Shown: positions 1-36,944 of the stretch, piece after piece
Numbering within the stretch: position 1 is the stretch's first letter
Layout: each line of letters starts with the position of its first letter
Assembly: GCA_001824485.1 (NCBI GenBank)
Contig: MHXP01000208.1
Location: 1 to 49,004 of the forward strand
DNA from: Planctomycetes bacterium GWA2_39_15
Lineage (GTDB): Bacteria; Planctomycetota; Brocadiia; Brocadiales; Brocadiaceae
DNA: 49,004 nucleotides
Direction of reading: 5' to 3'
Notes under the pieces: model-generated
Databases searched by the model: none
Told to the model about the DNA's origin: nothing
Seen by the model: only the letters and a program-made list of their open reading frames with translations
Made by a program: the position numbers and the translations under genes

Positions 1-146
1 AGGTTGAAATCATAACCAAGTTGTTCTGACAAAAATAGCAATTCTACCTGATGTCTTTTCATTTTCAAAACAGAAGAAAGTATTGCCAGACCATTGTTAA
101 TACCCACTGTTGAACCGATATTGAAATTAATGAATAAAATTTTCAT
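1..146 (-). CDS. N-terminal 48 codons of a gene running off the window; probable sixth B12-binding-domain radical SAM paralog
   Basis: Not in the ORF track because it is truncated. ATG at 146..144 (minus). My translation MKILFINFNIGSTVGINNGLAILSSVLKMKRHQVELLFLSEQLGYDFN stays open to position 1. The N-terminal pattern matches MNILVINI..VGLGYITTAMKNAGFDF (32059..33459) and MRILLVVY..QGLAYVASVLQKNGYEI (35556..36944). The CxxxCxxC region would lie outside the window. Confidence 0.4.
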   Translation of the reverse strand, partial: MKILFINFNIGSTVGINNGLAILSSVLKMKRHQVELLFLSEQLGYDFN

Positions 147-156
147 AGTGGCGTTA

Positions 157-197
157 TTTTACAACCCCCTTTCCCCACTTTTTAAGGGGAATTAACC
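157..197. repeat. short degenerate copy of the GC-rich palindromic intergenic repeat family
   Basis: Sequence ttttacaaccccctttccccactttttaaggggaattaacc. It begins like the core of the 1155..1270 element (tttaccacccctttatcc) and carries the hairpin ttcccc-N9-ggggaa (171..191). It sits between the stop of 209..1141 and the start at 146. Confidence 0.3.
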
Positions 198-208
198 TAA
201 TTCGTCCG

Positions 209-1141
209 CTACAGACGTTTATAATATTCTATTGTTTTCTGTAAACATTTATCCGTATCCAGTACAGGCTCCCATTTCAGCAGGTTTTTGGCAAGACTAA
301 TGTCAGCATACAACTCCATATTTTCGCCCTTCCTGTATGGATGCGCACCCCACAGCGGTCTTCCGCCCCCTGTCAAAGCCATTATTTTACCTATCATTTC
401 TTTAATTGAAACAGGTAAACCCGATGCTATGTTTATTATATGCCCCTTAGACAGTGGAGATACAGCCGCTTTTATCATTGCATCGGTTACATCTTCCATA
501 TAGCAGAAATCTCTTAATTGTTTTCCTTCTGATGTTTTAAATTCACTCTTATTTAAACAGCCCTTTATAATCTGGGGCAGGAATCTCTGGTCATTCTGGC
601 CTGGTCCGTAAACAAGAAACAGCCTCAGAGTAACTCCAGGAAACCCTTCGGTATGATGAAGCATTTGTATGAAATGGGACGCAGCAACTTTTGCAAAAGA
701 ATAAGGAGAAATCGGGCGTTCCCGCATCGTTTCTCTTTGCGGAGCAGGGGCAGCGCCATATTCATCGCTGCTGCCGACCTGAACAAAACCTTTTAGCCTT
801 TCTCTGTCAAGACATTCAATCAAATTCATAAGACCGATAAAATGAGATTCTATCACCTTGCGTCCACCCGAGAAATAATAACTGTGGTCTATATACCCGC
901 CAAGATTAAAGACGTAATCAAATGACTTATGCAAGAGGACGGATTTTAAGACATCTTTATTGCAAATATCAGCTTGAAGATACTTAGTACCACTCAGACG
1001 ATGTCCTTTATCCAATCTATCGGTTAATCCAAGACAGGTAACATTAGATGTTTCATTCAAGCATCTTTCAGCAAGATGTTTCCCAATAAACCCTGTACCT
1101 CCAATAATCAATATCCTGTCAGAAGTTGATAAGATACCCAT
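209..1141 (-). CDS. NAD-dependent sugar epimerase/dehydratase (extended SDR)
   Basis: 310 aa ORF. N-terminal Rossmann motif ILIIGGTGFIGKHL. Catalytic YxxxK present as YSFAK. Length and layout are typical of nucleotide-sugar epimerases/reductases. Confidence 0.8.
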   Translation of the reverse strand: MGILSTSDRILIIGGTGFIGKHLAERCLNETSNVTCLGLTDRLDKGHRLSGTKYLQADICNKDVLKSVLLHKSFDYVFNLGGYIDHSYYFSGGRKVIESHFIGLMNLIECLDRERLKGFVQVGSSDEYGAAPAPQRETMRERPISPYSFAKVAASHFIQMLHHTEGFPGVTLRLFLVYGPGQNDQRFLPQIIKGCLNKSEFKTSEGKQLRDFCYMEDVTDAMIKAAVSPLSKGHIINIASGLPVSIKEMIGKIMALTGGGRPLWGAHPYRKGENMELYADISLAKNLLKWEPVLDTDKCLQKTIEYYKRL

Positions 1142-1291: not shown

Positions 1292-3154
1292 TCATGTGAG
1301 AAATGCCTTCAGGGTTTCCTCTGTTGCAGGATAAAAAAGTTCTTCTGTCTTTTTTTTCCCTCTGGCAATTAAACTTCTTATCTCTTCCTCTCCAAGGCTG
1401 ATGGCCCGTTGCACTGCTTTTGTAATCTCATCTGTACTGAAAACAGGTTTAAAATCGGGATAATTTTTAAACCATTCAAGTATATTTTGTTGTAAAGTAG
1501 TTTCCTTACCGACAATTACTGTAGGAACACCCCGACATACTGCCTCGACAGCAGGACTGCCATCCGATGTCACAACACATTTGCACCTGTGTAACCACTC
1601 GCCAAAATCACCGGTTATCCATTCCCATCCCTCAGGTAAAGATTCTCTTTTTAATGCTCTCATTATAAAGTTTATATTGTACATAGGATGTGGCTTTACT
1701 ACTATCGGCACAATAATCTGCGTCAAACTTTCAATACATTTCGACAACAGTTCTACAGAAGCGTCAGCATCCATCGTCAAAGCAATTAAAACGACACGTG
1801 GTCTCTCGTTATTTCTCTTAATAGAAAATTGTTGAAAAAGATGCATGTATTTAAGGACTGGCCCGGCTATCAACTTTTCCACGACCATGCCTTCCTGTTC
1901 TAGTTTTTTACACATCCATGGTCCGTTGGTTATGATCCGGTCTGGGTACGGTCCCATTTTTGATTCCTCAGGTGTTCCTGAGTACCGTAGGTTAAACGGC
2001 TGGCCCCCTGCATGCTGGTACCCTATGGTCATTACCTCTGGCATAAACTTTCTAAAAGCTAATATTTGTGGCTTCTCATTACTATAGTTTTCAAAAAAAT
2101 CAATAAAAGAATGTACTCGTACATTCTTCTCTTTCCAATTTTTGATCATTCTGTAGTAGAGTAAAAAATTGACTGAAAATACGTTTCCTGCCTGCCGCCA
2201 ACGGCACATTTTGACGAGCCTGGTTATATCCCATCCATTGACCACTTGCGTGCCTTTGATTTTGTTTAACCCTTTCAATACCTGATAAATAGCCCAAATA
2301 TAATCCCTAAACCCAACGTGGTCTTCCGGTATTATGAAGGGTTTGGAATTTTGCCTGAGCCACTTGTAGGCTGAGATAAGACCGCGATTCATATTATACA
2401 GTCTGGCCAATGTCCAGATATCAAATCCTTTTTCTTTCAGCCAATTCGGTAAGTTGGCGAAATAGCGATCGTTAAAAACGCCGTCTTTACCGAAGCATGC
2501 CTCATCAACACATGTGCGAATAATAATGCGCGGTAAATTACAGTTTTTATAGAAATTATGTTTATCAAACTTCAAAGTGTACTTCGCCGCCAACCAGGAT
2601 TTTGACAAATACCATATGCCTAAAACCCAGCGTCCCGCCAGGAGAAAAATTTCTTTTACTATTTCACTGACGACTTTAATCCACACGTTTCCTGTTGTTT
2701 CTATGTTCCTTCCCCTTTTTGTAAGTTCATCCCGCATTGTTTGGATAAGTGGTATAGATTCACAAATCACCATGATATTTTCTTTATGCTCATCAATTAT
2801 CTTACTGACCACATTAAGGTAGCAAAGATATAAAAACAAAGGGTTTATCTGGGTATTCCTTTCCCACATAAATGAAGCCCACCATGAAATGTCGTTCTGG
2901 TATATTCGTGAGAAAGATGCGCTCCATCCCACAAAAGGACGACGTAGTTCCCATGCAGATTCATGAATATCTTTACTGATAGATACATGATTGAATGATG
3001 TGAGGGCATCTTTCAAGCTGAGTAAAGTCTTATATGATCTCCCCAGATATATCCAATCGGCTGTATTATGTTTAATCGCGATCTTCTTTAAATTACAAAC
3101 ATCCATACTTTCATGTACTAATAATATTTTTGCTTTCTTGTAACAGTTTAGCAT
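1292..3154 (-). CDS. 620-aa orphan; putative GT-B-type (TagF/KpsS-like) glycosyl- or glycosylphosphotransferase, function unproven
   Basis: Long ORF with a 7-nt overlap to the upstream gene. C-terminal signature VVKPHPMY ..(about 45 aa).. VVTSDGSPAVEAVCRGVPTVIVG is shared in layout with 7168..9126 and 33668..35524. Hydrophobic segment IFLLAGRWVLGIWYL near residue 170. I recognise no N-terminal domain. Confidence 0.5.
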   Translation of the reverse strand: MLNCYKKAKILLVHESMDVCNLKKIAIKHNTADWIYLGRSYKTLLSLKDALTSFNHVSISKDIHESAWELRRPFVGWSASFSRIYQNDISWWASFMWERNTQINPLFLYLCYLNVVSKIIDEHKENIMVICESIPLIQTMRDELTKRGRNIETTGNVWIKVVSEIVKEIFLLAGRWVLGIWYLSKSWLAAKYTLKFDKHNFYKNCNLPRIIIRTCVDEACFGKDGVFNDRYFANLPNWLKEKGFDIWTLARLYNMNRGLISAYKWLRQNSKPFIIPEDHVGFRDYIWAIYQVLKGLNKIKGTQVVNGWDITRLVKMCRWRQAGNVFSVNFLLYYRMIKNWKEKNVRVHSFIDFFENYSNEKPQILAFRKFMPEVMTIGYQHAGGQPFNLRYSGTPEESKMGPYPDRIITNGPWMCKKLEQEGMVVEKLIAGPVLKYMHLFQQFSIKRNNERPRVVLIALTMDADASVELLSKCIESLTQIIVPIVVKPHPMYNINFIMRALKRESLPEGWEWITGDFGEWLHRCKCVVTSDGSPAVEAVCRGVPTVIVGKETTLQQNILEWFKNYPDFKPVFSTDEITKAVQRAISLGEEEIRSLIARGKKKTEELFYPATEETLKAFLT

Positions 3155-3807
3155 TTTGTCACGAGTTTATTTATGTAGTTTTTTATCTCTTTTATATCCC
3201 TAAATGAGAGTACATCCGGACTAAATGTAACAAAATTGTTATTTAGTCCAATAAAATTTATTCTCGCCTCTTGTGCAGCTTTATAATCAAATAGCGAGTC
3301 ACCGATGTAATAAACATTGTTCCTTATAAAATTTTCATTGATAACTATAGCTTCAATTTCTCTCGATTTTACTTGTGCACTTCCAATAATTTTTTTAAAA
3401 AAACTGCATAAGTTGCGCATTTGGGTAATTTCTTCAAGCTCTTTTTGCGGGGTAGTCGACAATAAAAAAATGGGTATCTTTTTTGTGAAATATTCCAGGA
3501 ATTCAACGGCTCCTGCTATAAAAGAACATTCACATATTTTTTTTAGACACATCTCCGAGAACTTATCTGAAAGATTTTTGATCATGTGTGCTGGATCACT
3601 AATCTTTAGTAAGTCTTTAAACAGGTATTCAAATTTTGCATACCGTGACAATCCAATATTTCCCCTGTGATAAGCCATTGCTTTTTCATATACATCGGGA
3701 TAGCGTATAAAAACTTCATGAAATACCTCAGTCTTTACACTTACAGAATCAAGTATCACTCCATCAAAATCAAGTATCAGACAGTCAAGCTTTTTATATG
3801 AAGCCAT
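3148..3807 (-). CDS. HAD-superfamily phosphatase
   Basis: Motif I LILDFDGVILDS (DxDG), motif II LLSTTP, motif IV YIGDSLFDY. 219 aa. Confidence 0.8.
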   Translation of the reverse strand: MASYKKLDCLILDFDGVILDSVSVKTEVFHEVFIRYPDVYEKAMAYHRGNIGLSRYAKFEYLFKDLLKISDPAHMIKNLSDKFSEMCLKKICECSFIAGAVEFLEYFTKKIPIFLLSTTPQKELEEITQMRNLCSFFKKIIGSAQVKSREIEAIVINENFIRNNVYYIGDSLFDYKAAQEARINFIGLNNNFVTFSPDVLSFRDIKEIKNYINKLVTKC

Positions 3808-4696
3808 GCTCTTTTAAATTGTTGTACAAACGCGTGTACTCATCGCTATTCAATCGGCTCCATGGCTCTCTGCAGGTTCCCACATCCAGTCCCTTCATTT
3901 TTAAAATATCATAGCAAACAACGGCTCGTAGCGGTTTGATGCCCTGAAAGGCCCTTGCCTGAATAACTTTCAACTGAAGCTCCGTTGCAGCCTCAAAATC
4001 TCCATTCATAATACTGTTGTAAAGGGCAACAACAATTTCAGGAAATGCCGTAGAAGTGCCGGCAACACACCCTTTTGCGCCAAGCATGAAACCCGGCAAT
4101 AAAATACTTGCAGAACCCGGCAGTAAATTAAAATCAGGCATTTTTTTGTTTATGATATTCATCATCTCACCGAAAGTTGCCATATTTGCACCACTATCCT
4201 TCACGCCGGTAACTCCGACGTCAATCAATTTTGAAAAAAAAGAAGGGGTAAGCGTATAGCCGGTTGTCCGAGGATTATTGTAATAGTGTACGGGTATACG
4301 AACTGAATTTACTATTTTTTCATAATGTTTCAGAATCGAAGCTTCATCGTATCCAAATGAAGAATAGTAAAACGGAACAACACCCGCTACAATATCAGCA
4401 CCAGCAGATTCAGCATGCTGTGCTAAATAAATGGATGTTTTGGTCGAAGGTGATCCTACATGGATAATTATTTGCAAACATCTTTTTTTAGCATGTGAAA
4501 TTATTATCTTAGCGGCATTCATTCTTTCCTGAGTGCTCATTAAGGGAAAACTTCCGTATGAACCAATAGCGAATAAACCGTGCACCCCCTTTTCTGATAA
4601 AAAATCAATGAGATTTCGTATCCCTTTTTCGTATATTTCTCCCCCTTCAGTAAACGCAGTAATTATTGGTGAGATGACGCCTTTAACATTTATCAT
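3794..4696 (-). CDS. DapA/NanA-family class I (Schiff-base) pyruvate aldolase
   Basis: GLFAIGSYGSFPLMSTQER occupies the position of the GTTGE region. VHYYNNPRTTG matches the Y-N-x-P motif. GVTGVKDSGAN contains the candidate Schiff-base Lys. 300 aa. Confidence 0.8.
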   Translation of the reverse strand: MINVKGVISPIITAFTEGGEIYEKGIRNLIDFLSEKGVHGLFAIGSYGSFPLMSTQERMNAAKIIISHAKKRCLQIIIHVGSPSTKTSIYLAQHAESAGADIVAGVVPFYYSSFGYDEASILKHYEKIVNSVRIPVHYYNNPRTTGYTLTPSFFSKLIDVGVTGVKDSGANMATFGEMMNIINKKMPDFNLLPGSASILLPGFMLGAKGCVAGTSTAFPEIVVALYNSIMNGDFEAATELQLKVIQARAFQGIKPLRAVVCYDILKMKGLDVGTCREPWSRLNSDEYTRLYNNLKEHGFI

Positions 4697-5418
4697 ATGT
4701 TCTCCTTTTTATTATCTTTATTTAGCAAGAATTTAACGTACTCAAATTGGAATTCGTGGTCTATATCTATAGACCTTTCAAAAGGCATAATATAAGGGAT
4801 AGGTTCAGTCCCTATTAGATTTTCCTGTTTTTTTAACCGCATTACTGTATTGAAAATAATAGCTCCATTATACCAAAACGTCATTGTATGCTCTTGACTG
4901 CGCGTTGTTCTTAAATACTCCCTTGGGAAAACCGGGACTAAGCGGTTATCTTCTGAGATTGCGAGTGCCAAATGAATGGGTCTCTCGTACCGCGTTACGC
5001 TCACCACAGGAGTTTTGATGTCGTTATTCAAAAAAATTTCCCAAGTGTCTTTGATATCGGTAACATTTCGCAGGGGAGAGGTCGCAAGCATTATTCCAAC
5101 CGCAACATCGTCTTTTAGATTTAAAGCTGACAGCATTTCTTTAATCACGTCTATAAGGAGGATGTTATCTCCGGACAATTCTGCCGGTCGTCTATATCCC
5201 TCTGCGCCGTAATACCTGCCAATATTAAGAATCTCATCGTTTTCAGAGTTTACTATTATTCTTGAAAAAATTCCACTTTCTCTGGCTTTAACAATAGTGT
5301 GATATAGTAACGGTTTTCCGTTACATTCTTTTATGTTTTTATTTTTAACTCTTTTTGACCCTCCCCGCGCAGGAATGATGCATATACACTTGCTTTTGTG
5401 AGATTCCTTTGATTCCAT
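4693..5418 (-). CDS. CMP-sugar synthetase (acylneuraminate cytidylyltransferase family, CTP_transf_3)
   Basis: N-terminal CIIPARGGSKRVKNKN followed by NGKPLLYHTI. 241 aa. 4-nt overlap with the aldolase gene downstream. Confidence 0.85.
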   Translation of the reverse strand: MESKESHKSKCICIIPARGGSKRVKNKNIKECNGKPLLYHTIVKARESGIFSRIIVNSENDEILNIGRYYGAEGYRRPAELSGDNILLIDVIKEMLSALNLKDDVAVGIMLATSPLRNVTDIKDTWEIFLNNDIKTPVVSVTRYERPIHLALAISEDNRLVPVFPREYLRTTRSQEHTMTFWYNGAIIFNTVMRLKKQENLIGTEPIPYIMPFERSIDIDHEFQFEYVKFLLNKDNKKENI

Positions 5419-28970: not shown

Positions 28971-29009
28971 TTTTATTTCCATTTTGCGCAACAGTTTATT
29001 TGTAAGGTA

Positions 29010-30212: not shown

Positions 30213-31182
30213 TAATTTCTGAACCGCTAAAATCGAACATAAAAGGTATGTGTAAATACCCTTTTAACGCTTTCTTCACTCTTTTCTGTGCCTCCGGTTC
30301 AATATATAAAAGCATAAAACCTCCTCCTCCAGCACCTAGCAATTTACCTCCTACTGCACCATGCCTTATAGCGGTTTCATAAATATGGTCAATTTCGCTG
30401 TTACTAATTTTACTCGATAGTTGCTTTTTTAATTCCCAGGACTCATTTAATAGCTTCCCAAATTCAATAAAATTGCCCTTACTCGAAATAATTACCTTGT
30501 ATGCTTCATCAACCAAATCCCTTATTGCTTTCAATTCATATTTTTTTTCATTAATACTTTGAATTTGCTCTTTAGCTATTTCAGATGCATATCTTGATAT
30601 TCCCGTAAAAAAAAGCATAAATTTACTTTCAAAACTTCTTAAATTATTCTTCTCCATTATTATTGGTTCAACTATAATATTGCCGGTTCTTAGAAACTCA
30701 ATAGTATTAACCCCCCCACAAGCAGCCCAAGCCTGGTCCTGAGAACCTACATTTTCTTTTAGCAAATTCTGTTCAATATGAATTGCCGTCTTGTAGAGAT
30801 CTTCCTTTGAAATAATCTTGCCGTTAATCGCATACAGAGTTTTTAGAAGCCCTACCGTGAAAGCAGAACTTGAACCCATACCAGAACGAGCAGGTATGTC
30901 GGCGTCATGATGAATTTCAAGTCCTTGTTCAACTTGTAAATATTTTAATGTTTCCCTAACCGACGGATGCTGAATTTCATCTATATTAGATACCGTCTCT
31001 ACCTTTGAATACGCAACTCGAAACCTATGCGCGAAAAAAGGTGGCAGTTCCCGGCATGTTATGTAACAGTATTTATCTATTGTTGCACCTAAAACCTTAC
31101 CTCCATGTTCCAGATACCACGAAGGATAATCTGTTCCTCCCCCGAAAAACGAAATTCTATGTGGAGTTCTTGAAATAATCAT
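30178..31182 (-). CDS. GHMP sugar kinase, HddA-like (D-glycero-D-manno-heptose 7-phosphate kinase type)
   Basis: RTPHRISFFGGGTDYP and the GHMP motif PARSGMGSSSAF. 334 aa. Adjacent to a nucleotidyltransferase gene. Confidence 0.7.
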   Translation of the reverse strand: MIISRTPHRISFFGGGTDYPSWYLEHGGKVLGATIDKYCYITCRELPPFFAHRFRVAYSKVETVSNIDEIQHPSVRETLKYLQVEQGLEIHHDADIPARSGMGSSSAFTVGLLKTLYAINGKIISKEDLYKTAIHIEQNLLKENVGSQDQAWAACGGVNTIEFLRTGNIIVEPIIMEKNNLRSFESKFMLFFTGISRYASEIAKEQIQSINEKKYELKAIRDLVDEAYKVIISSKGNFIEFGKLLNESWELKKQLSSKISNSEIDHIYETAIRHGAVGGKLLGAGGGGFMLLYIEPEAQKRVKKALKGYLHIPFMFDFSGSEIIVYKPSYQNGR

Positions 31183-31188
31183 ATTCCG

Positions 31189-31890
31189 TCACTTTAAATA
31201 AAACACCAATTCCTTCTTTGCTCTTTCATAATCTTCTGGAATTCCAATGTCGATAAAATAATCATTACTAATATATGAAAACACATTTATTTTCTTTGCA
31301 ATTTTTTGTATGAAGTCTCTTTCAAAAGAAAATTGGTTTCCAAATTCATCAATAATACTTGAAATAACTTTACTATTTATTATGTAAATACCTCCGTTAA
31401 TATACCCAAAACTATTGCTAGCCTTTTCTTCAAATTGTACTATTTTGTCATTCTGTATAATTACGGCCCCATACCTACTACAATTTTCCGTTGCCTTTAC
31501 AGCAATTGTTAAATTTGAACTTTTCCCCCGATGGAAATCATACATTTCAGAGAGATTAATACAAAAGAATGTATCACCATTCAAAACTATAACATTATCG
31601 TCACTAACATATTTTAAAGCTTCCCGAATCGCACCTCCTGTTCCCAAAGGTATTGTCTCAAAAACATATCCTATTTCGATATTTTTATATCTAAAACCAA
31701 AATAATTTTCTATAGCCTCATGCTTGTAGCAAACCGAAAGCAAAACCTTCTTTACTTTCTGGTTTATTAAATAATCCAGTAGAAACGATAAAAATGGTCT
31801 TCCATTTATATCTGCCATTGGTTTTGGAACATTTTTCACAATACTCTGAAGTCTTGTTCCAAAACCGCCTGCCAAAATTATTACCTCCAT
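31189..31890 (-). CDS. sugar-1-phosphate nucleotidyltransferase, HddC-like
   Basis: MEVIILAGGFGTRL .. VPKPMADINGRPFL. 233 aa. Confidence 0.8.
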   Translation of the reverse strand: MEVIILAGGFGTRLQSIVKNVPKPMADINGRPFLSFLLDYLINQKVKKVLLSVCYKHEAIENYFGFRYKNIEIGYVFETIPLGTGGAIREALKYVSDDNVIVLNGDTFFCINLSEMYDFHRGKSSNLTIAVKATENCSRYGAVIIQNDKIVQFEEKASNSFGYINGGIYIINSKVISSIIDEFGNQFSFERDFIQKIAKKINVFSYISNDYFIDIGIPEDYERAKKELVFYLK

Positions 31891-32058: not shown

Positions 32059-33459
32059 CTAAAAGGATTTACTTTGGCTTGCACCTCTATAATATTGTGT
32101 TTTTATTAATTTGTCTTTTTCTAAACCTAAATTTAGTTTTTCATTGCACCGTTGCAAACCATTGACAACATGCGCTGCAAATTCCTCATCGCTCATTTGA
32201 GTCATATTTACTCTTAAATCCTGCCTATCACCTAATCTTAACAGATACGATTCTTCGTCTTCAATAAAACCATGCCTTACAGCATAATCATACATCTGGC
32301 TGCCAGGCAGCGGAAGAAGGTATCCTGTGGATGGGTAAATGTTATTTTCTATACATGCATCAAATGTTTTCTTTATTGTTTCAGGGGTCTCTTGGGGATA
32401 TCCAAATACAACAGTAGTCCATGTTTGAAGCCCCGCTTTTTGAAGTAATCTTGTTTGCTTAGAAAATTGATTCACAGGAATCCTTCTTTTCATCTCCCTC
32501 AAAATATTAGAATCGGCAGACTCAAGACCATAACATAACCCTAAACAACCGGCTTCTTTCATGTTTTCAATCATAGGCATATCTGCCTCATCATCAAAAA
32601 GGTTGGGCCGGCAGTTTGCCATCCAATAAAATTTGGCTTTTTCATTAAGAATTTTTTCAACGAACTCCAGTGTGTGTTTTTTAGAAGACAAAGCTAAATC
32701 ATCCCAAAATATAACGAAATTTATTGAGTATTTTTCAATAAGAGACTTTATTTCGGTAACAATTGATTCTGAAGTTCTGCGTCTATACGGCATATCTTGG
32801 AATATATGATAGCAAAAAGTGCATTTTGCAATACAACCTCTTGCAATACTTACTTGTAATGCTCTTATTTCCTCTCTTGGAATTGGTAATGGATCGTTGA
32901 TTCGCTGTTTGGTGCCATCTATATATATTTCTAAATCAAAAAGAGAATAATTCATGAAAGGCAAAGATGAAATATCTTTGATCAAAGGCCTTGGAGGAGT
33001 ACAAACCACGTTGCCATCCTTCATAAAGCAAATACCACAGACTTCCTCAAGAGGTTTGGATTCTGAAAGTTTCCGAAGTATGTCGACAATAGTCTCTTCA
33101 CCCTCACCAATTACTGCTATGTCAACTTTCGTACGTCTAAGTAGCGTATCAAAAACTGATGTAGCTACAGTGTTGCCTACAATAATTTTAGAATACGGGT
33201 GACATTTCTTAATTAGAGCTGCAAGTGATTTAATTATCCTATAACCCGTAACAACGGTACCCATGCAAATTACATCATATTTTCTCCCTCTGATAAATTG
33301 CTCTATTTGTCCATCTGTGTATCTATAAGCATTAATATCCAGCAAATCAAAATCAAAACCCGCATTTTTCATTGCTGTAGTAATATATCCCAAACCAACA
33401 GGAAATAACTTTACGGGTGATTCTGGTCTTAAACAAATATTAATAACTAAAATATTCAT
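32059..33459 (-). CDS. B12-binding-domain (class B) radical SAM enzyme
   Basis: VIGEGEETIVDIL. IARGCIAKCTFCYH. 466 aa. RBS gaaaggaag 6 nt upstream of the ATG. Confidence 0.85.
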   Translation of the reverse strand: MNILVINICLRPESPVKLFPVGLGYITTAMKNAGFDFDLLDINAYRYTDGQIEQFIRGRKYDVICMGTVVTGYRIIKSLAALIKKCHPYSKIIVGNTVATSVFDTLLRRTKVDIAVIGEGEETIVDILRKLSESKPLEEVCGICFMKDGNVVCTPPRPLIKDISSLPFMNYSLFDLEIYIDGTKQRINDPLPIPREEIRALQVSIARGCIAKCTFCYHIFQDMPYRRRTSESIVTEIKSLIEKYSINFVIFWDDLALSSKKHTLEFVEKILNEKAKFYWMANCRPNLFDDEADMPMIENMKEAGCLGLCYGLESADSNILREMKRRIPVNQFSKQTRLLQKAGLQTWTTVVFGYPQETPETIKKTFDACIENNIYPSTGYLLPLPGSQMYDYAVRHGFIEDEESYLLRLGDRQDLRVNMTQMSDEEFAAHVVNGLQRCNEKLNLGLEKDKLIKTQYYRGASQSKSF

Positions 33460-33549: not shown

Positions 33550-33667
33550 TCCCCAATAATGTGATATAATTATTATACTTGTAACAGTAAATTGAGAGCC
33601 ATCATTAATGATAAGTTTTAAACATTTTCCCTTATTCACATCCATTGAGAATAACGATTATGCAAGC

Positions 33668-35524
33668 TTATTTTCTCATACTATAATTTCCACTAAAGTT
33701 AATAACTTTATTCCCACCCCACTTTTCAGCATATTTAATATTGGCTTTATTTATTACTTCACCCCAGCTTAATCCATCATCAAATCCTTTTAAACACCAT
33801 TTGAAGTATTCACCCATTCTCTTGCCTCCGTCCCCATCCCTAAATGGATCAAGCAAATCCAAAAAAGGTCCCCAATCGCCAATGTCGAGATTTGAATCAG
33901 GGTTTATTTTAAAAGACTTAATTGCTGCAATCATCTTCTCTAGATCATTAAATATAAACCGTTCATAACCCCATTTGTAAAATACATGATTCCTATGATA
34001 TGTCATATCATAATGTATACCTCTACATCCAGCAATAACCGCTTCTACAACTGCCGAAGAAATACCACAACCTACAGCTATATCAGCACCAAAAGAAGCG
34101 TCTGATGGGAAACGTCCAAGCTCGTTTTCCAATTTTATACACCGCCCACTTTCTATTGCCTCGATAAATAAAGGATGAATTGTTGTAAGATTATTAATAA
34201 CAAAAGGTTTTTTCGATTTAATAATCAAACCAATTGTCGAATCATCAAGCATCAATTGCAAAAATGATTGATAAAATTTAGCCATGCTATTCATTGAGAA
34301 TTGCAAATCAGGCCCACACATGCTATCAAATAATGCTATTATAAACTTGACTCCTTTTGACCTTAGTTTCTGACAATAATTTTCATACTTCTGGTAAATA
34401 TTATTTGTAAAACCTGAAACAATACATATTGCCTCTCGGCCATAATTATGTTTGAAATAATTTTCCCCTCTTTCATTCCAAATGAACAATACATGCTTTG
34501 GATTTGGATTAACACCTATAAAAGAAGTCGGTTGATAAAGAAACTCTGATCTTTGTTTACCAGCAAGAAATCCAGACATTCCATTTTTTATATCAAAAGC
34601 AATCGCTTGCGCTATATTTTTTGCCATACCTTCTTCTGGCGTATAGTTAATCTTAATATTAAAATCATCGTAAAAAGAGCACCAAAAATGAACTTGTTTT
34701 ATCAAATCATTAGCAACCTTGATGATCCAGGCTTCTATCTTATTTTGTACTACACCTTTCTCAAATAACATATTCTTTAATATTCTAGATGGTTGCCAAT
34801 AGTTTTTCTCATTTCCTTCGATAATTCCCTTTTCTAAAGAAACCCAATTAAATCTTTGGCATTCAATTTTTTGAATAATTTTTCTTCCAATAGATTTGCC
34901 CCTAGAGGAGTTGATATCGAAATAAATTAAAATCCGTTCTGGTTCTACGCCACTTTCAAAATACCAATTCAGATCATTCCTTCGCGAAGGATCGATTCCT
35001 TCACTATAATGACAGGCAATAGTTCCACATTGGTTAACGTGAAAAGGAAGATAATTATTCTTTCTAAATTTAATAGAACTTTCACGAACTTTGTCGGAAT
35101 AGCTTTTCACGTTATCTTTTATTAGTTTTTTTAGTAAACTTCCGCTTGTGAAACCCAAGAATATTTGGTTTACCAATAAAATTGGAATATCCTCAAAATT
35201 CCAACATTCTTTAAGTAACATAAAAATACCTAACTTCGGCGCCTTAACTACACCTTCTTGAAGAGAAATTTCTTTACCATTGCGTTTGTACCATTTAATT
35301 ACACATGCTTGTCGCACAAATGGATAGATTTCTTGTTTCACAATATACTGAAAGTACATAAGAACACGCCGGCTCGGTAATATTTTAACTAATTGTTTAA
35401 AAATGTCGGTTGACTCAATACTATATGAAATATGAATAGCTAATTCCGAAGCTTTTTCTTCTACCTCATACTTCAAAACGTCACCATGAATTCCCCTCAT
35501 TTCACCAAGCTGGTATTCTAACAT
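33668..35524 (-). CDS. 618-aa orphan; putative GT-B-type transferase, third member of the orphan family
   Basis: C-terminal LIIKSKKPF ..(about 45 aa).. VGCGISSAVVEAVIAGCRGIHYD has the same layout as the KPHP..SxxxxEA..P blocks of 1292..3154 and 7168..9126. I recognise nothing in the N-terminal 400 aa. Confidence 0.5.
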   Translation of the reverse strand: MLEYQLGEMRGIHGDVLKYEVEEKASELAIHISYSIESTDIFKQLVKILPSRRVLMYFQYIVKQEIYPFVRQACVIKWYKRNGKEISLQEGVVKAPKLGIFMLLKECWNFEDIPILLVNQIFLGFTSGSLLKKLIKDNVKSYSDKVRESSIKFRKNNYLPFHVNQCGTIACHYSEGIDPSRRNDLNWYFESGVEPERILIYFDINSSRGKSIGRKIIQKIECQRFNWVSLEKGIIEGNEKNYWQPSRILKNMLFEKGVVQNKIEAWIIKVANDLIKQVHFWCSFYDDFNIKINYTPEEGMAKNIAQAIAFDIKNGMSGFLAGKQRSEFLYQPTSFIGVNPNPKHVLFIWNERGENYFKHNYGREAICIVSGFTNNIYQKYENYCQKLRSKGVKFIIALFDSMCGPDLQFSMNSMAKFYQSFLQLMLDDSTIGLIIKSKKPFVINNLTTIHPLFIEAIESGRCIKLENELGRFPSDASFGADIAVGCGISSAVVEAVIAGCRGIHYDMTYHRNHVFYKWGYERFIFNDLEKMIAAIKSFKINPDSNLDIGDWGPFLDLLDPFRDGDGGKRMGEYFKWCLKGFDDGLSWGEVINKANIKYAEKWGGNKVINFSGNYSMRK

Positions 35525-35555
35525 AATCCTTTACATCATATACAAAGTACACATT

Positions 35556-36944
35556 TCAGGTTTGACGAAATCCTCTAAAACTCGTATTCCTTTCTGAATA
35601 GAGTTTTTTTGATTGTTCAAGGTAATTTAATAATTTTTTATTAAAATAATTTGTAAACAATTTTTTGTTTGCTTCAAAAAGACACTGATGAAATTCATCA
35701 TCATCCATATCTGTAAAATTAATCGCCAATAAATCCGAATTGGTATGCTTATTTTCATAAAAATCAGCACAGTCTCTAAGAAGTCTTTTTCCAATAGCAT
35801 AATAATAAAGCGGTGAACCTGGATAAGGGGTTACAGGCCGGATAGTCCGCATTTGAGCACCATCATCATATTTCAATAAAAAATCTACACCCTTCTTTAT
35901 AGTTTCTTTATTATCACCTATATTGCCAAATATAATATTAAAGCCAGGGCTTATTCCAGCATTTAAAGTAGCTTCTATACCATTAATAATTTGTTCTGTT
36001 GTTAAGCCCTTTTTCATATTTTTCAGTACCTGATCATCCATGGCTTCAATTCCATAATTGATAAACACACAACCTGCCTTTCGCATTAGCTTTAAGACTT
36101 CTGGCTTGGCATAATTTAATCTACCATTACAGTCCCATTTTATATTTAATTCTGCCTTGACAAAATCTTCACATAAACTTATAGTCCTTGAAATTGATGA
36201 CATTAGTAATTCATCAGAAAACGCTATATAAGTAATACCATAATTCCATTTTAAAAATTTTATTTCTTCGATAATACTTCCATTACTACGAGGTCTAAAA
36301 CCTTCATCCATGCGATAGCAAAAACTACATTCAAAAGTACATCCTCTACCAGATAAAACAGGCATTATAAAATCACTATTTACTGCATGTGGCATACGTA
36401 AAAGTCTATAATATTCTATAGGAAATAATTCATAAGCGGGAAAAGGAATGGAATCTACATCTTTTACTAGGTTTCGTCGCTCATTTATAATAATCTTATC
36501 TTCTTCACGAAAAGCTATTCCTTTTACAGAAGTTAAAGCTTTATTATTGCCAACAGCCTTCATTAATTCAATAATTGTTTCTTCTCCTTCTCCAATAACA
36601 ACCGCATCAGCTTGAGTTTTCCTAAGAAAAAACGCAGGTTCAGGAGAAGGACCATGCCCGCCAATTATATAAAAAGGCCTTTGCTTAGATTTATTTATTG
36701 CATCAGAAATTTTTAACAACTTTCTGTACTGATAATATCCTGCTATAACACTTATCCCGACAACATCAAACTTATTTTTGTTTAAATACTCTGTTAAATG
36801 CTCATCAGGATAATGATTCATATCTTGGCTATAAACCTCTATTTCATATCCATTCTTCTGTAGCACAGAGGCAACATATGCTAATCCTTGGGGAAACCAA
36901 TGTACATACGATTCATTATCATATACAACCAGTAAGATTCTCAT
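35556..36944 (-). CDS. B12-binding-domain (class B) radical SAM enzyme
   Basis: VIGEGEETIIEL. SGRGCTFECSFCYR. 462 aa. Most similar in length and layout to 32059..33459. Confidence 0.85.
   Translation of the reverse strand: MRILLVVYDNESYVHWFPQGLAYVASVLQKNGYEIEVYSQDMNHYPDEHLTEYLNKNKFDVVGISVIAGYYQYRKLLKISDAINKSKQRPFYIIGGHGPSPEPAFFLRKTQADAVVIGEGEETIIELMKAVGNNKALTSVKGIAFREEDKIIINERRNLVKDVDSIPFPAYELFPIEYYRLLRMPHAVNSDFIMPVLSGRGCTFECSFCYRMDEGFRPRSNGSIIEEIKFLKWNYGITYIAFSDELLMSSISRTISLCEDFVKAELNIKWDCNGRLNYAKPEVLKLMRKAGCVFINYGIEAMDDQVLKNMKKGLTTEQIINGIEATLNAGISPGFNIIFGNIGDNKETIKKGVDFLLKYDDGAQMRTIRPVTPYPGSPLYYYAIGKRLLRDCADFYENKHTNSDLLAINFTDMDDDEFHQCLFEANKKLFTNYFNKKLLNYLEQSKKLYSERNTSFRGFRQT

What the first reader, a model, noticed from the sequence alone, without database searches (positions are those of the whole stretch)
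1..36944. Six cobalamin-type radical SAM genes inside one glycan locus
Seen:
- Five complete ORFs (13916..15589, 20387..22036, 23372..24841, 32059..33459, 35556..36944) each have an N-terminal Rossmann-like domain with the GEGE-type motif of cobalamin-binding domains (VVHGEGE, VIGEGE, VIEGEG, VIGEGEE twice).
- Each also has a CxxxCxxC cluster motif (CFGICSFC, CPYNCTFC, CPYSCAFC, CIAKCTFC, CTFECSFC).
- A sixth such N-terminus is cut by the window edge (1..146).
- They are divergent paralogs (462-557 aa), not recent duplicates.
- A classical SAM methyltransferase (15608..16753) follows one of them, 18 nt downstream.

Established: class B radical SAM enzymes mostly methylate unactivated C or P centres. 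Examples are GenK/GenD1 on aminoglycoside sugars, Fom3, and the hopanoid enzymes HpnP/HpnR. Some do other radical chemistry (BchE).

Inference: this density inside a sugar-nucleotide and transferase locus predicts a surface glycan with several C-methylated or otherwise radical-tailored sugars. I know of no characterised cell-surface glycan pathway with so many class B rSAMs.
Basis: partly seen in the sequence, partly recalled or inferred. Interest (0 to 1): 0.8.

Follow-up and report, generated by a model that had tools for sequence, protein, structure and literature searches.

The report
Radical SAM enzymes in sugar cassettes
A 49-kb surface-sugar gene cluster from an uncultivated groundwater microbe carries six very different vitamin-B12-type radical enzymes, at least three of which belong to conserved, uncharacterised enzyme families that travel with sugar-building gene sets across many phyla and probably add carbon (methyl) groups to unusual sugars.

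Summary
Five complete ORFs at the stated coordinates carry a B12-binding domain, a radical SAM core and a CxxxCxxC motif. The cut sixth gene is completed to a 503-aa protein of the same type on a contig identical to the window edge. The paralogs share only 22-29% identity, and none reaches the cutoff of any curated subfamily (BchE, HpnJ, ladderane lipid, AprD4, P-methylases).

The new point is that the locus is a mosaic of nucleotide-sugar cassettes, each with its own radical SAM enzyme:
- rSAM5 (35556-36944) has orthologs at 64-80% identity in over 20 phyla, including archaea. It typically sits last in a legionaminic-acid operon.
- rSAM3 (23372-24841) ends a conserved cassette: HddC-like, HddA-like, RfbH-like, two SDRs and a split transketolase.
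- rSAM1 (13916-15589) sits in a conserved cassette: methyltransferase, GFO, Ldh_2 and cytidylyltransferases.

Such multi-rSAM glycan loci recur elsewhere, with up to four enzymes per 21 kb. The window is extreme but not unique.

Cobalamin-dependent C-methylation of activated sugars is the likeliest chemistry, but it is inferred. AprD4-like non-methylating chemistry is not excluded. No paper in the searched library links radical SAM enzymes to nonulosonic acids.

The parts
1..146 (-). rSAM6: N-terminus (48 aa) of a 503-aa class B radical SAM protein cut by the window edge
   Evidence: L086 is identical to the window edge and gives the full protein, which starts with the same 48 aa. It scores PF04055 83.4 bits and PF02310 54.3 bits.
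209..1141 (-). NAD-dependent sugar epimerase/dehydratase (SDR), immediately upstream of rSAM6
   Evidence: PF01370, 158.9 bits.
1292..3154 (-). 620-aa protein, candidate glycosyltransferase (weak TIGR04326 'surface carbohydrate biosynthesis' match)
   Evidence: TIGR04326 scores 58 bits against a cutoff of 250. The DUF6716 hint is sub-threshold. No solved-structure relative.
3148..3807 (-). HAD-family phosphatase
   Evidence: PF13419, 70.5 bits.
3794..4696 (-). DHDPS/NanA-family pyruvate aldolase or synthase
   Evidence: PF00701, 172 bits.
4693..5418 (-). Cytidylyltransferase (CMP-ulosonic acid synthetase type)
   Evidence: PF02348, 76.2 bits.
5425..7167 (-). HMGL-like aldolase fused to a C-terminal domain of about 250 aa with weak MptE-like/CST-I hints
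   Evidence: PF00682, 102.7 bits. The C-terminal hints are sub-threshold: 15.4 and 13.9 bits.
7168..9126 (-). 652-aa protein, candidate glycosyltransferase
   Evidence: BFO_1060 family glycosyltransferase scores 20.9 bits against a cutoff of 200. No Pfam hit at E<=0.01; only a sub-threshold DUF6716 hint, 11.7 bits. No solved-structure relative.
9123..10478 (-). GT2 glycosyltransferase fused to a cytidylyltransferase; part of the rSAM1 cassette
   Evidence: PF00535 85.7 bits plus PF02348 47.3 bits. The same fusion occurs in L172, L174 and L180.
10634..11371 (-). Cytidylyltransferase (rSAM1 cassette)
   Evidence: PF02348, 86.1 bits. Its position is conserved in L172 and L174.
11383..12420 (-). 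Ldh_2 family 2-oxoacid/hydroxyacid dehydrogenase (rSAM1 cassette)
   Evidence: PF02615, 362 bits. Conserved in L172, L174 and L180.
12601..13926 (-). GFO/IDH/MocA oxidoreductase; overlaps the end of rSAM1 by 11 nt
   Evidence: PF22725 and PF01408. Adjacent to rSAM1 orthologs in L172 and L174.
13916..15589 (-). rSAM1: class B radical SAM, 557 aa
   Evidence: PF02310 53 bits and PF04055 52.6 bits. Family members share 52-75% identity in Omnitrophota, Saganbacteria and others. Synteny is conserved.
15608..16753 (-). Class I SAM-dependent methyltransferase, 18 nt upstream of rSAM1
   Evidence: Methyltransf_23/11/12/25. Conserved next to rSAM1 orthologs in L174 and near them in L172.
18465..20234 (-). 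ABC exporter (fused membrane and ATPase domains)
   Evidence: PF00005 111 bits and PF00664 38.8 bits.
20387..22036 (-). rSAM2: class B radical SAM, 549 aa
   Evidence: PF04055 83.3 bits and PF02310 68.4 bits. The closest relative in the fetched loci is 36% identical, apart from the strain variant L112.
22125..23183 (-). GT2 glycosyltransferase
   Evidence: PF00535, 33.8 bits.
23372..24841 (-). rSAM3: class B radical SAM, 489 aa; overlaps the transketolase C-subunit gene by 8 nt
   Evidence: PF02310 65.8 bits and PF04055 64.4 bits. Family members share 63-85% identity across phyla. It is the terminal gene of a conserved cassette.
24834..26641 (-). Split transketolase (N-terminal subunit 25790-26641, C-terminal subunit 24834-25793)
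   Evidence: PF00456; PF02779 plus PF02780. Found with rSAM3 in 54 and 51 of 80 loci, usually directly upstream, at 62-66% identity.
26608..28486 (-). GDP-L-fucose-synthase-like reductase/epimerase (26608-27555) and an SDR dehydratase/epimerase (27548-28486)
   Evidence: NF047922 scores 393 bits against a cutoff of 500. PF01370. Conserved in the cassette.
29010..30212 (-). RfbH/ColD-like PLP enzyme (candidate sugar 3-dehydratase or aminotransferase)
   Evidence: PRK15407 RfbH scores 282 bits against a cutoff of 423. PF01041, 264.6 bits.
30178..31890 (-). HddA-like GHMP sugar kinase (30178-31182) and HddC-like sugar-1-phosphate nucleotidyltransferase (31189-31890)
   Evidence: NF049969 scores 157 bits (cutoff 600) and NF049965 scores 235 bits (cutoff 300). 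Conserved with rSAM3 in 43 and 31 of 80 loci.
32059..33459 (-). rSAM4: class B radical SAM, 466 aa
   Evidence: PF04055 57 bits and PF02310 56.1 bits. The nearest cluster representatives among 1.84 billion proteins are 38-49% identical.
33668..35524 (-). 618-aa protein with no recognisable domain; follows rSAM5 orthologs in several genomes; candidate transferase
   Evidence: No Pfam or NCBIfam hit. Homologs follow rSAM5 in L006 and L032, and a similar-sized unannotated protein follows it in L180. The single-sequence model failed.
35556..36944 (-). rSAM5: class B radical SAM, 462 aa; member of a highly conserved family linked to legionaminic-acid operons
   Evidence: PF04055 80.5 bits and PF02310 66.3 bits. 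Orthologs share 64-80% identity in more than 20 phyla. Synteny is conserved. The AF2 model has pLDDT 90.3 and matches TsrM, MgmA, AprD4, OxsB, CysS and TokK.
37168..39003 (-). NodU/CmcH-type carbamoyltransferase
   Evidence: PF16861 182.6 bits and PF02543 109.3 bits.
38988..41456 (-). SDR (38988-39776), CMP-nonulosonic acid synthetase-type cytidylyltransferase (39773-40471) and GFO/IDH/MocA oxidoreductase (40473-41456)
   Evidence: Pfam hits. The PseF model scores 156 bits against a cutoff of 205.7. The same trio occurs in many rSAM5 loci.
41554..45046 (-). DegT-type aminotransferase (41554-42669), SDR dehydratase/epimerase (42706-43737) and two NeuD/PglD-type N-acetyltransferases (43737-45046)
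   Evidence: PF01041, 358.6 bits. The aminotransferase is below both the LegC and PseC cutoffs (240 and 250 bits). NeuD_NnaD scores 193.7 bits (above 160.8) and 137 bits.
45079..45951 (-). Xylose-isomerase-like TIM-barrel protein; also precedes rSAM5 in a Brocadiaceae genome
   Evidence: PF01261, 72 bits. Seen in L180.
45959..47008 (-). NeuB-type nonulosonic acid synthase (349 aa from the ATG at 47008)
   Evidence: TIGR03569 scores 403.7 bits, above the cutoff of 399.65. The gene is called as 349 aa on public contigs.
47458..48456 (-). LegB-type NAD-dependent 4,6-dehydratase
   Evidence: TIGR04180 scores 508.5 bits, above the cutoff of 475.

Best explanation
The window is a one-strand, mosaic glycan-biosynthesis locus from an uncultivated groundwater microbe. 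It is assembled from several horizontally mobile nucleotide-sugar cassettes, and each cassette carries its own deeply divergent class B (B12-binding-domain) radical SAM enzyme as a tailoring step.

Cassettes:
- Cassette A (48456 to 35556) makes a CMP-activated legionaminic-acid-type nonulosonic acid. Its genes are LegB, a NeuB-type synthase, two N-acetyltransferases, an aminotransferase, a cytidylyltransferase and a carbamoyltransferase. It ends with rSAM5.
- Cassette B (31890 to 23372) makes a nucleotide-activated deoxy or higher-carbon sugar. Its genes are an HddC-like transferase, an HddA-like kinase, an RfbH/ColD-like PLP enzyme, two SDRs and a split transketolase. It ends with rSAM3.
- Cassette C (16753 to 9123) holds a methyltransferase, rSAM1, a GFO oxidoreductase, Ldh_2, a cytidylyltransferase and a GT2-cytidylyltransferase fusion.
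- A further aldolase/cytidylyltransferase block ends with rSAM6.
- rSAM2 and rSAM4 sit between cassettes, next to glycosyltransferase-like genes and an ABC exporter.

Proposed mechanism (inferred from established class B chemistry in GenK, Fom3, TokK and CysS):
1. The [4Fe-4S] cluster bound by CxxxCxxC cleaves SAM to a 5'-deoxyadenosyl radical.
2. That radical abstracts a hydrogen from an unactivated sugar carbon.
3. The substrate radical takes a methyl group from methylcobalamin held in the N-terminal domain.
4. A second SAM re-methylates the cofactor.

The predicted product is a glycan containing several C-methylated, and so carbon-extended or branched, sugars.

Shown: domain architecture, fold, exclusion from characterised subfamilies, and conserved synteny for rSAM1, rSAM3 and rSAM5. 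Inferred: substrate identity, cobalamin use, methylation, and surface display.
For: Architecture and fold:
- All six enzymes pass the PF02310 and PF04055 gathering scores and carry CxxxCxxC.
- The rSAM5 model (pLDDT 90.3) superposes on the solved class B enzymes TsrM, MgmA, OxsB, CysS and TokK at TM 0.65-0.68 normalised to the query.

rSAM5 and the legionaminic-acid operon:
- Orthologs share 64-80% identity in Brocadiaceae, Nitrospirota, Omnitrophota, Desulfobacterota, Bacillota, Actinomycetota, Campylobacterales, Methanolobus, Promethearchaeota and others.
- The recurrent gene order is LegB, LegC, NeuD-type acetyltransferase, NeuB, NeuC, CBS-nucleotidyltransferase, cytidylyltransferase, rSAM.
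- Of 43 loci with at least 8 kb on both sides, 34 have NeuB and 36 have NeuB or the cytidylyltransferase.
- Partner representatives pass curated cutoffs: NeuC 488 > 236, LegC 528 > 420, NeuD 193 > 161.

rSAM3: the transketolase C subunit is present in 54 of 80 metagenome loci, usually directly upstream of rSAM3, and the rest of the cassette in 31-51 loci, at 58-66% identity for the kinase, SDR and transketolase genes.

rSAM1: orthologs at 61% and 71% identity sit in the same cassette (methyltransferase, GFO, Ldh_2, cytidylyltransferase, GT2-cytidylyltransferase) in a Saganbacteria genome and in a 148-kb metagenome contig. That contig also reproduces the window's rSAM5 block.

Operon structure in the window: an 8-nt overlap between the transketolase C gene and rSAM3, an 11-nt overlap between rSAM1 and GFO, and an 18-nt gap between the methyltransferase and rSAM1.

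Exclusion from known families: no enzyme reaches any curated non-glycan family cutoff.

Possible products: orphan CMP-activated ulosonic acids with an extended C10 backbone, and +14 Da nonulosonic acids, have been detected by mass spectrometry with no enzyme assigned (bioRxiv 10.64898/2026.04.20.719630).
Against: - No biochemical data exist for any of these families.
- AprD4 is a class B-like enzyme that acts on a sugar but binds no cobalamin and dehydrates rather than methylates. It is the best solved-structure sequence hit for rSAM3, rSAM4 and rSAM5, a close second for rSAM1, and gives the highest TM-score (0.72) for the rSAM5 model.
- PF02310 homology does not prove cobalamin binding.
- There is no cobalamin riboswitch or B12 gene in the window (Pfam).
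- rSAM2, rSAM4 and rSAM6 have no close orthologs in the 160 fetched loci (at most 36% identity), so their assignment rests on location only.
- The window's cassette A is not a canonical legionaminic-acid operon. Its aminotransferase is below the LegC cutoff, no NeuC homolog is present, and a transposase remnant separates LegB from NeuB.
- The host organism and the type of glycoconjugate are unknown.
Confidence: 0.6

Rival explanations
1. The enzymes do tailor the activated sugars, but by non-methylating radical chemistry. Options include AprD4-like 1,2-diol dehydration or deoxygenation, epimerisation (for example generating 4-epi or 8-epi legionaminic acids), or ring or chain rearrangement as in OxsB. 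Cobalamin may or may not be involved.
For: - AprD4 (6fd2) is the top solved-structure sequence hit for rSAM3, rSAM4 and rSAM5 and a close second for rSAM1 (E 3e-16 to 5e-13).
- AprD4 gives the highest TM-score for the rSAM5 model, 0.72.
- OxsB also matches.
- BchE, a cyclase rather than a methylase, is the top or a near-top NCBIfam hit for all five.
- A classical methyltransferase is already present beside rSAM1.
Against: - Identity to AprD4 is only 17-18%, and the AprD4 sequence match covers only the radical SAM core.
- The AprD4 family model scores 54-74 bits. That is lower than the scores for methylase, cyclase and other class B models such as BchE, HpnJ, the P-methyltransferases and the ladderane lipid enzyme, at 86-165 bits.
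- Most characterised class B enzymes are methylases (established knowledge).
- The B12-binding domain matches nearly the full Pfam model in all six.
Confidence: 0.25
2. The enzymes modify a non-sugar substituent or carrier of the glycan. Candidates are an N-acyl group on the nonulosonic acid (acetyl to propionyl, or an acetimidoyl group), a phosphonate head group (P-methylation as in PhpK or Sden_1168), or the lipid anchor.
For: - Sub-threshold hits to P-methyltransferase families: Sden_1168 at 108-131 bits and PhpK at 91-130 bits.
- rSAM5 orthologs often sit beside the HisH/HisF/WbuX amidotransferase trio that makes acetimidoyl groups. WbuX scores 355 bits, above its cutoff of 203.
Against: - There is no PEP mutase or other phosphonate gene in the window.
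- Scores are far below the cutoffs of 575-600.
- rSAM5 also occurs in minimal legionaminic-acid operons that lack the amidotransferase trio.
- An N-acyl methylation would still count as sugar tailoring, so this reading partly overlaps the main explanation.
Confidence: 0.1
3. The radical SAM genes are unrelated passengers (tetrapyrrole, hopanoid or ladderane lipid, or peptide-maturation enzymes) that were inserted into a recombination-prone locus.
For: - The locus is mosaic. It holds a transposase remnant at 47099-47461, PDDEXK remnants near 28.5-29.0 kb, a DUF559 endonuclease-like gene, and toxin-antitoxin genes just beyond the left edge.
- The top NCBIfam names are BchE, HpnJ and a ladderane lipid enzyme.
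Against: - All those hits are 2.5- to 4.5-fold below their curated cutoffs.
- Synteny with sugar genes is conserved across phyla for three of the enzymes.
- Gene overlaps show co-translation with sugar genes.
- No precursor peptide, tetrapyrrole or hopanoid genes are present.
Confidence: 0.03

Closest known systems
Class B radical SAM C-methyltransferases acting on sugars or cytidylylated substrates: GenK and GenD1 (gentamicin), Fom3 (fosfomycin; substrate is cytidylyl-2-hydroxyethylphosphonate). This comparison rests on established knowledge, not on a test run here.
   Same: N-terminal B12-binding domain plus a radical SAM core with CxxxCxxC. They are encoded inside sugar or nucleotide-activated pathways. 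Fom3 acts on a CMP-activated substrate, which parallels CMP-nonulosonic acids.
   Different: Those enzymes belong to antibiotic secondary metabolism in actinomycetes. The enzymes here sit in cell-glycan loci of many phyla. They share no subfamily-level similarity with any curated class B model. Direct comparison with GenK and Fom3 sequences was not possible with these tools.
AprD4 (PDB 6fd2), radical SAM 1,2-diol dehydratase of apramycin biosynthesis
   Same: It is the best solved-structure sequence hit for three of the five complete enzymes and a close second for a fourth. It gives the highest TM-score, 0.72, for the rSAM5 model. It acts on an aminosugar.
   Different: Identity is 17-18%. The AprD4 family model scores 54-74 bits against a cutoff of 500. 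AprD4 does not use cobalamin, whereas these proteins keep a full-length PF02310 match.
Solved cobalamin-dependent radical SAM enzymes: the methylases TsrM (6wte), MgmA (9ccb), TokK (7kdx) and CysS (9n1b), plus OxsB (5ul2)
   Same: The same two-domain fold, with Foldseek E-values of 1e-23 to 1e-18 and TM 0.65-0.68.
   Different: Identity is 16-22%. Their substrates are tryptophan, a protein glutamine, a carbapenem, a thioester-linked aromatic and a nucleotide. None is a nucleotide sugar.
Legionaminic acid pathway of Campylobacter jejuni and Legionella pneumophila (LegB, LegC, LegH, LegG, LegI, LegF, PtmE)
   Same: In related genomes, rSAM5 orthologs are appended to operons whose members pass the LegB, LegC, NeuB, NeuC and NeuD cutoffs. 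The window has LegB and NeuB above their cutoffs.
   Different: The characterised pathway contains no radical SAM enzyme. The window lacks NeuC and a bona fide LegC. The only prior mention found is an uncharacterised radical-SAM-superfamily ORF 13-c in the LPS locus of some L. pneumophila serogroup 1 strains (PMC3766260).
GDP-heptose (HddA/HddC), GDP-colitose (ColD/ColC) and lincosamide GDP-octose (LmbP/LmbO with transaldolase LmbR) pathways. This analogy for cassette B comes from memory and is a lead only.
   Same: A GHMP sugar kinase, a guanylyltransferase-like enzyme, an RfbH/ColD-like PLP enzyme and an Fcl-like reductase. A carbon-chain-transferring enzyme is encoded alongside.
   Different: All matches are below equivalog cutoffs. 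Here the carbon-transfer enzyme is a split transketolase, and the cassette ends with a class B radical SAM. No paper combining these elements was found.

Membership tests
Class B (B12-binding domain) radical SAM superfamily | N-terminal cobalamin-binding Rossmann-type domain (PF02310) above the gathering score | tested here: met
   The five complete ORFs score 53-68.4 bits against a gathering score of 32.1. rSAM6 scores 54.3 bits.
Class B (B12-binding domain) radical SAM superfamily | Radical SAM core (PF04055) with a CxxxCxxC cluster motif | tested here: met
   Scores are 52.6-83.4 bits against a gathering score of 29.5. The motifs were read in the translations. The three cysteines are invariant in a 39-sequence alignment.
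Class B (B12-binding domain) radical SAM superfamily | Two-domain fold matching solved class B structures | tested here: met
   Tested for rSAM5 only. The AF2 model has pLDDT 90.3. It matches TsrM, MgmA, AprD4, OxsB, CysS and TokK with E 1e-23 to 1e-18 and TM 0.65-0.72.
Class B (B12-binding domain) radical SAM superfamily | Actual binding of cobalamin and methyl transfer via methylcobalamin | not testable with these tools
   This needs purified protein. AprD4 shows that the fold alone does not prove cobalamin use.
BchE anaerobic Mg-protoporphyrin cyclase (TIGR02026) | Score at or above the equivalog cutoff of 481.35 bits | tested here: not met
   129.6-164.9 bits. No tetrapyrrole genes in the window.
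Hopanoid radical SAM enzymes HpnJ (TIGR03471) and HpnR (TIGR04367) | Score at or above the equivalog cutoffs of 577.6 and 650 bits | tested here: not met
   HpnJ 127-161 bits; HpnR 60-79 bits.
Lipid (ladderane-associated) B12/radical SAM protein (TIGR04072) | Score at or above the cutoff of 360 bits | tested here: not met
   86-140 bits.
AprD4 family radical SAM diol-dehydratase (NF033070) | Score at or above the cutoff of 500 bits | tested here: not met
   53.8-74.1 bits.
P-methyltransferases PhpK (TIGR04479) and Sden_1168 (NF038361) | Score at or above the cutoffs of 600 and 575 bits, with phosphonate genes (PEP mutase) nearby | tested here: not met
   91-131 bits. No PEP mutase domain in any window protein.
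Legionaminic acid biosynthesis locus | LegB 4,6-dehydratase (TIGR04180, cutoff 475) and NeuB-type synthase (TIGR03569, cutoff 399.65) | tested here: met
   508.5 and 403.7 bits.
Legionaminic acid biosynthesis locus | LegC aminotransferase (TIGR04181, cutoff 420) and hydrolysing 2-epimerase NeuC/LegG (TIGR03568) | tested here: not met
   The window aminotransferase at 41554-42669 scores 240.5 bits. No window protein matches the NeuC cluster. Both features are met in the related rSAM5 loci, at 527.7 and 488.3 bits.
GDP-D-glycero-D-manno-heptose pathway (HddA/HddC) | Equivalog scores for HddA (cutoff 600) and HddC (cutoff 300) | tested here: not met
   156.7 and 235.1 bits. The proteins are related to this family but are not members.

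The most novel reading that the evidence does not exclude
The rSAM5 family is a cobalamin-dependent C-methylase of CMP-activated legionaminic-acid-type sugars, and it makes ten-carbon or otherwise carbon-extended ulosonic acids. On this reading it is the missing enzyme behind two orphan mass-spectrometry signals: the 'extended backbone' C10 CMP-ulosonic acids in Magnetospirillum, and the +14 Da nonulosonic acids in the anammox bacterium Kuenenia. Together with the rSAM3 and rSAM1 cassettes, it would show that radical C-methylation of nucleotide sugars is a widespread, horizontally traded way to diversify cell-surface glycans in anaerobic bacteria and archaea.
Probability: 0.25. Interest if true: 0.8.

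Novelty: new variant of a known kind. Interest (0 to 1): 0.66.

Why it matters
Class B radical SAM enzymes are known almost entirely from antibiotic, cofactor, lipid and peptide pathways. None has been characterised in the synthesis of a cell-surface glycan or a sialic-acid-like sugar.

This work defines at least three conserved, uncharacterised enzyme families, each with a clear genomic partner set:
- a legionaminic-acid operon;
- a cassette built around a split transketolase and nucleotide-sugar genes;
- a cassette built around cytidylyltransferases and Ldh_2.

The families occur in more than 20 phyla, including three cultured species in which the legionaminic-acid cluster lies beside flagellin genes. 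That makes a specific hypothesis directly testable: radical C-methylation of CMP- or GDP-sugars.

It also offers candidate enzymes for higher-carbon ulosonic acids that mass spectrometry has detected without any assigned biosynthesis. Such sugars affect surface charge, phage recognition and immune recognition. The enzymes would be useful tools for making rare sugars.

Tried and rejected
- **Host organism.** Exact-protein look-ups return only short groundwater or aquifer metagenome contigs that break near both window ends. A look-up of the 332-aa LegB ORF found nothing on record. The host stays unidentified. Similarity of mobile cassettes to Brocadiaceae, Nitrospirota or Omnitrophota is not taxonomic evidence.
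- **Cobalamin riboswitch or any Rfam family in the window.** None at gathering thresholds.
- **The three domain-less proteins of 618-652 aa.** They have no significant Pfam or NCBIfam hits; TIGR04326, BFO_1060, DUF6716, MptE-like and CST-I appear only as sub-threshold hints. They are not similar to one another by BLASTP. They have no meaningful solved-structure sequence hits, and the antibody light-chain matches are spurious. A single-sequence AlphaFold model of 33668-35524 was unusable (pLDDT 35), so no fold search was run on it.
- **Separating methylase from dehydratase by fold.** This failed. TsrM, MgmA, AprD4, OxsB, CysS and TokK all match about equally.
- **Orthologs of rSAM2, rSAM4 and rSAM6.** The best matches in 160 fetched loci are only 34-36% identical. 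The search for rSAM4 across 1.84 billion cluster representatives gave nothing closer than 49%.
- **Magnetospirillum gryphiswaldense and Kuenenia stuttgartiensis.** Whether they encode an rSAM5 ortholog could not be checked with the remaining tools.
- **Phosphonate P-methylation reading.** Rejected, because no PEP mutase is present.
- **BchE, HpnJ and ladderane lipid readings.** Rejected on curated cutoffs and on gene context.

Full report
**1. Observation**

The window has about 35% G+C, and every substantial ORF is on the minus strand.

- Each passes the Pfam gathering score for the B12-binding domain: PF02310, 53-68 bits against 32.1, matched over almost the whole model.
- Each passes the score for the radical SAM core: PF04055, 52.6-83.3 bits against 29.5.
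- The quoted GEGE-type and CxxxCxxC motifs are in the translations.
- In a 39-sequence alignment the two glycines of the motif and the three cysteines are invariant, and the first glutamate is nearly invariant.

The 48-residue fragment at the left edge is too short for a profile hit. However, contig L086 is 100% identical to the last 2 kb of the window. It continues the fragment into a 503-aa protein with CIGEGED and CIYKCTYC that passes both Pfam models.

The six proteins are 22-29% identical to each other. One detail needs correcting: because transcription runs right to left, the SAM methyltransferase at 15608-16753 precedes rSAM1 by 18 nt rather than following it.

**2. What the enzymes are not**

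No enzyme reaches the curated cutoff of any NCBIfam class B family.

| Family | Scores here (bits) | Cutoff (bits) |
|---|---|---|
| BchE | 130-165 | 481 |
| HpnJ | 127-161 | 578 |
| Ladderane-associated lipid enzyme | 86-140 | 360 |
| Sden_1168 and PhpK P-methylases | 91-131 | 575-600 |
| AprD4 | 54-74 | 500 |

Sequence hits to solved structures are remote: AprD4, MgmA, TsrM, CysS, OxsB and TokK at E 3e-16 to 4e-4.

An AlphaFold model of rSAM5 (pLDDT 90.3) matches all of these at TM 0.65-0.72. This confirms the class B two-domain fold. It cannot separate a methylase from an AprD4-like dehydratase.

**3. The surroundings**

Pfam and NCBIfam scans of all other ORFs show a nucleotide-sugar and transferase locus. 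Read in the direction of transcription, it contains:

- LegB (508.5 bits, above the cutoff of 475);
- a transposase remnant;
- a NeuB-type synthase (403.7 bits, above 399.65);
- a TIM-barrel protein, two NeuD-type acetyltransferases, an SDR, an aminotransferase, a GFO oxidoreductase, a cytidylyltransferase, an SDR and a carbamoyltransferase;
- rSAM5, a 618-aa orphan protein, and rSAM4;
- an HddC-like transferase, an HddA-like kinase, an RfbH-like PLP enzyme, an SDR, an Fcl-like reductase and a split transketolase, then rSAM3;
- a GT2 glycosyltransferase, rSAM2, an ABC exporter, an aldo-keto reductase and a DUF559 gene;
- a methyltransferase, rSAM1, a GFO oxidoreductase, Ldh_2, a cytidylyltransferase and a GT2-cytidylyltransferase fusion;
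- a 652-aa orphan protein, an HMGL-like aldolase fusion, a cytidylyltransferase, a DHDPS-type aldolase, a HAD phosphatase, a 620-aa orphan protein and an SDR, then rSAM6.

There are five PF02348 cytidylyltransferase domains but only one NeuB. This suggests several different CMP-activated acidic sugars.

**4. rSAM5 belongs to a conserved family attached to legionaminic-acid operons**

Its 120 best-scoring homologs are 72-96% identical and nearly all 462 aa long. Named sources span Thermodesulfovibrionales, Brocadiaceae, Omnitrophota, Nitrospirae, Eremiobacterota, Schekmanbacteria and Actinobacteria.

A scan of one genome per species found 146 relatives. The best 80 are 64-80% identical and include Methanolobus, Promethearchaeota, Campylobacterales, Parcubacteria and Elusimicrobia. 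They also include three cultured species: Geomonas silvestris, Desulfoscipio geothermicus and Wukongibacter baidiensis.

Clustering the neighbouring genes gives a recurrent order: dehydratase, aminotransferase, acetyltransferase, NeuB, NeuC, CBS-nucleotidyltransferase, cytidylyltransferase, rSAM.

- Representatives pass curated cutoffs for NeuC (488 > 236), LegC (528 > 420), NeuD (193 > 161) and, where present, the WbuX amidotransferase (355 > 203).
- Of 43 loci with at least 8 kb on each side, 34 carry NeuB and 36 carry NeuB or the cytidylyltransferase.
- In the three cultured species the cluster lies beside flagellin genes.
- A Brocadiaceae genome has cytidylyltransferase, NeuB, acetyltransferase, TIM barrel, rSAM5 ortholog, a 624-aa protein and a Wzx-type flippase. 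This closely matches the window.

rSAM5 is much more conserved between the window and these loci (median 69%) than its partners are: NeuB 42%, cytidylyltransferase 38%.

**5. rSAM3 ends a second conserved cassette**

Its 120 best-scoring homologs are 71-85% identical and occur in Elusimicrobia, Nitrospirae, Deltaproteobacteria and Scalindua.

In 80 metagenome loci the transketolase C subunit is present in 54, usually directly upstream. The N subunit is present in 51, the SDR and Fcl-like pair in 46, the HddA-like kinase in 43, the RfbH-like enzyme in 40 and the nucleotidyltransferase in 31. Identity to the window proteins is 58-66% for the kinase, SDR and transketolase genes and lower (31-37%) for the RfbH-like and nucleotidyltransferase genes.

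All members are related to the GDP-heptose, colitose or fucose enzymes but fall below their equivalog cutoffs. In the window the rSAM3 start overlaps the transketolase gene by 8 nt. I found no description of this cassette.

**6. rSAM1 sits in a third conserved cassette**

Full-length homologs at 52-75% identity occur in Omnitrophota and Saganbacteria, and a Brocadiaceae relative is 48% identical.

- A Saganbacteria genome has GFO, rSAM1 ortholog (61%), cytidylyltransferase, methyltransferase, GT2-cytidylyltransferase, Ldh_2, ABC exporter, NeuB and a split transketolase.
- A 148-kb contig has formyltransferase, deacetylase, nucleotidyltransferase, cytidylyltransferase, rSAM5 ortholog (79%), a 684-aa protein and a flippase. 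It continues with methyltransferase, rSAM1 ortholog (71%), GFO, Ldh_2, cytidylyltransferase, GT2-cytidylyltransferase, a 600-aa protein, an aldolase, another rSAM and a cytidylyltransferase. This is nearly the window's order.
- The Brocadiaceae locus has the same cassette without the radical SAM gene. That fits an optional tailoring step.

**7. The remaining three enzymes, and how unusual the locus is**

rSAM2, rSAM4 and rSAM6 have no relative above 36% identity in the 160 fetched loci, apart from a strain variant. For rSAM4 the nearest representatives among 1.84 billion clusters are 38-49% identical.

Across the 160 loci (2.30 Mb), 214 class B enzymes fall into 46 clusters at 45% identity. 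Nineteen of 78 loci in one set and 27 of 80 in the other carry two or more; the maximum is four.

The window has five within 23 kb and six overall. It is the densest case seen, but it belongs to a recurring pattern.

**8. Mechanism**

The best-supported reading is that each enzyme tailors the activated sugar of its cassette. Established class B chemistry points to methylcobalamin-dependent methylation of an unactivated carbon. Fom3, which acts on a cytidylylated substrate, is an apt precedent for CMP-sugars; this point comes from my own knowledge.

This step is inferred. AprD4-like chemistry remains a serious rival. No cobalamin riboswitch or B12 gene is in the window.

**9. Literature**

No paper in the searched library combines radical SAM with legionaminic or nonulosonic acids in a relevant way. 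The nearest mention is an uncharacterised radical-SAM-superfamily ORF 13-c in the LPS locus of some Legionella pneumophila strains (PMC3766260).

A 2026 preprint (10.64898/2026.04.20.719630) reports two relevant signals, with no enzyme proposed for either:
- CMP-activated ulosonic acids with an extended C10 backbone in Magnetospirillum gryphiswaldense;
- +14 Da CMP-nonulosonic acids in Kuenenia stuttgartiensis.

Anammox S-layer O-glycans are known to contain nonulosonic acids and GDP-heptose-derived chains (10.1101/2020.12.03.409086). These are leads, not tests.

**10. Verdict**

The chemistry, the cofactor use, the host and the glycoconjugate type remain to be shown. I rate this a new variant of a known kind, with moderately high interest.

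Noticed in passing
window 47099-47461 (-): This 120-aa ORF is the C-terminal remnant of a DDE_Tnp_1_4 transposase (51.7 bits). It sits between LegB and NeuB, and public contigs of this organism break just beyond it. It points to past IS activity in the locus.
   Followed up: partly
window 28486-29010 and 16812-17249 (-); L086 12240-14777: Other signs of mosaic assembly are present. PDDEXK_3 fragments lie in the 524-bp gap upstream of the SDR gene. An intact DUF559 (Vsr-like endonuclease) gene sits in the middle of the glycan locus. PIN and HEPN/nucleotidyltransferase toxin-antitoxin pairs lie just past the left edge, and further glycan genes follow them (GT2, SDR, DegT, methyltransferase, ArnT-like PMT_2).
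   Followed up: no
window 4693-5418, 9123-10478, 10634-11371, 39773-40471 (-): Four genes in the window carry a PF02348 cytidylyltransferase domain (one of them fused to a GT2 glycosyltransferase), but there is only one NeuB-type synthase. Two pyruvate-aldolase-type genes (DHDPS family at 3794-4696, HMGL-like at 5425-7167) may supply other 2-keto-3-deoxy acids for CMP activation.
   Followed up: no
window 5425-7167 (-): An HMGL-like aldolase domain is fused to a C-terminal region of about 250 aa. That region has only sub-threshold hints to MptE-like/DUF115 and CST-I sialyltransferase. It may be an aldolase-transferase fusion.
   Followed up: partly
L112 6746-8220 (Ga0209521_10002963): In a 96-99% identical strain variant of this locus, the rSAM3 gene carries a 5-nt insertion cluster near codon 125 that breaks the reading frame. 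This is either a natural pseudogene or an assembly error.
   Followed up: partly
P0376, P0381, P0392, P0425, P0461, P0463: Among relatives of rSAM4 are giant proteins of 1,800-2,300 aa with 3-6 separate matches to the class B radical SAM query. They appear to be tandem fusions of several such enzymes.
   Followed up: no
L180 15697-21389 (Brocadiaceae GCA_031316145.1): The cassette of GFO, Ldh_2, methyltransferase, cytidylyltransferase and GT2-cytidylyltransferase occurs here without any rSAM1 ortholog. The radical SAM step therefore looks like an optional add-on to that pathway.
   Followed up: no
L077 (Wukongibacter baidiensis), L047 (Desulfoscipio geothermicus), L035 (Geomonas silvestris): In all three cultured carriers of an rSAM5 ortholog, the legionaminic-acid cluster lies next to flagellin genes (four tandem copies in L077). 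In two of them (L047, L077) proteins of 600-630 aa flank the region, and L035 has an 843-aa one. This suggests flagellin glycosylation islands.
   Followed up: partly
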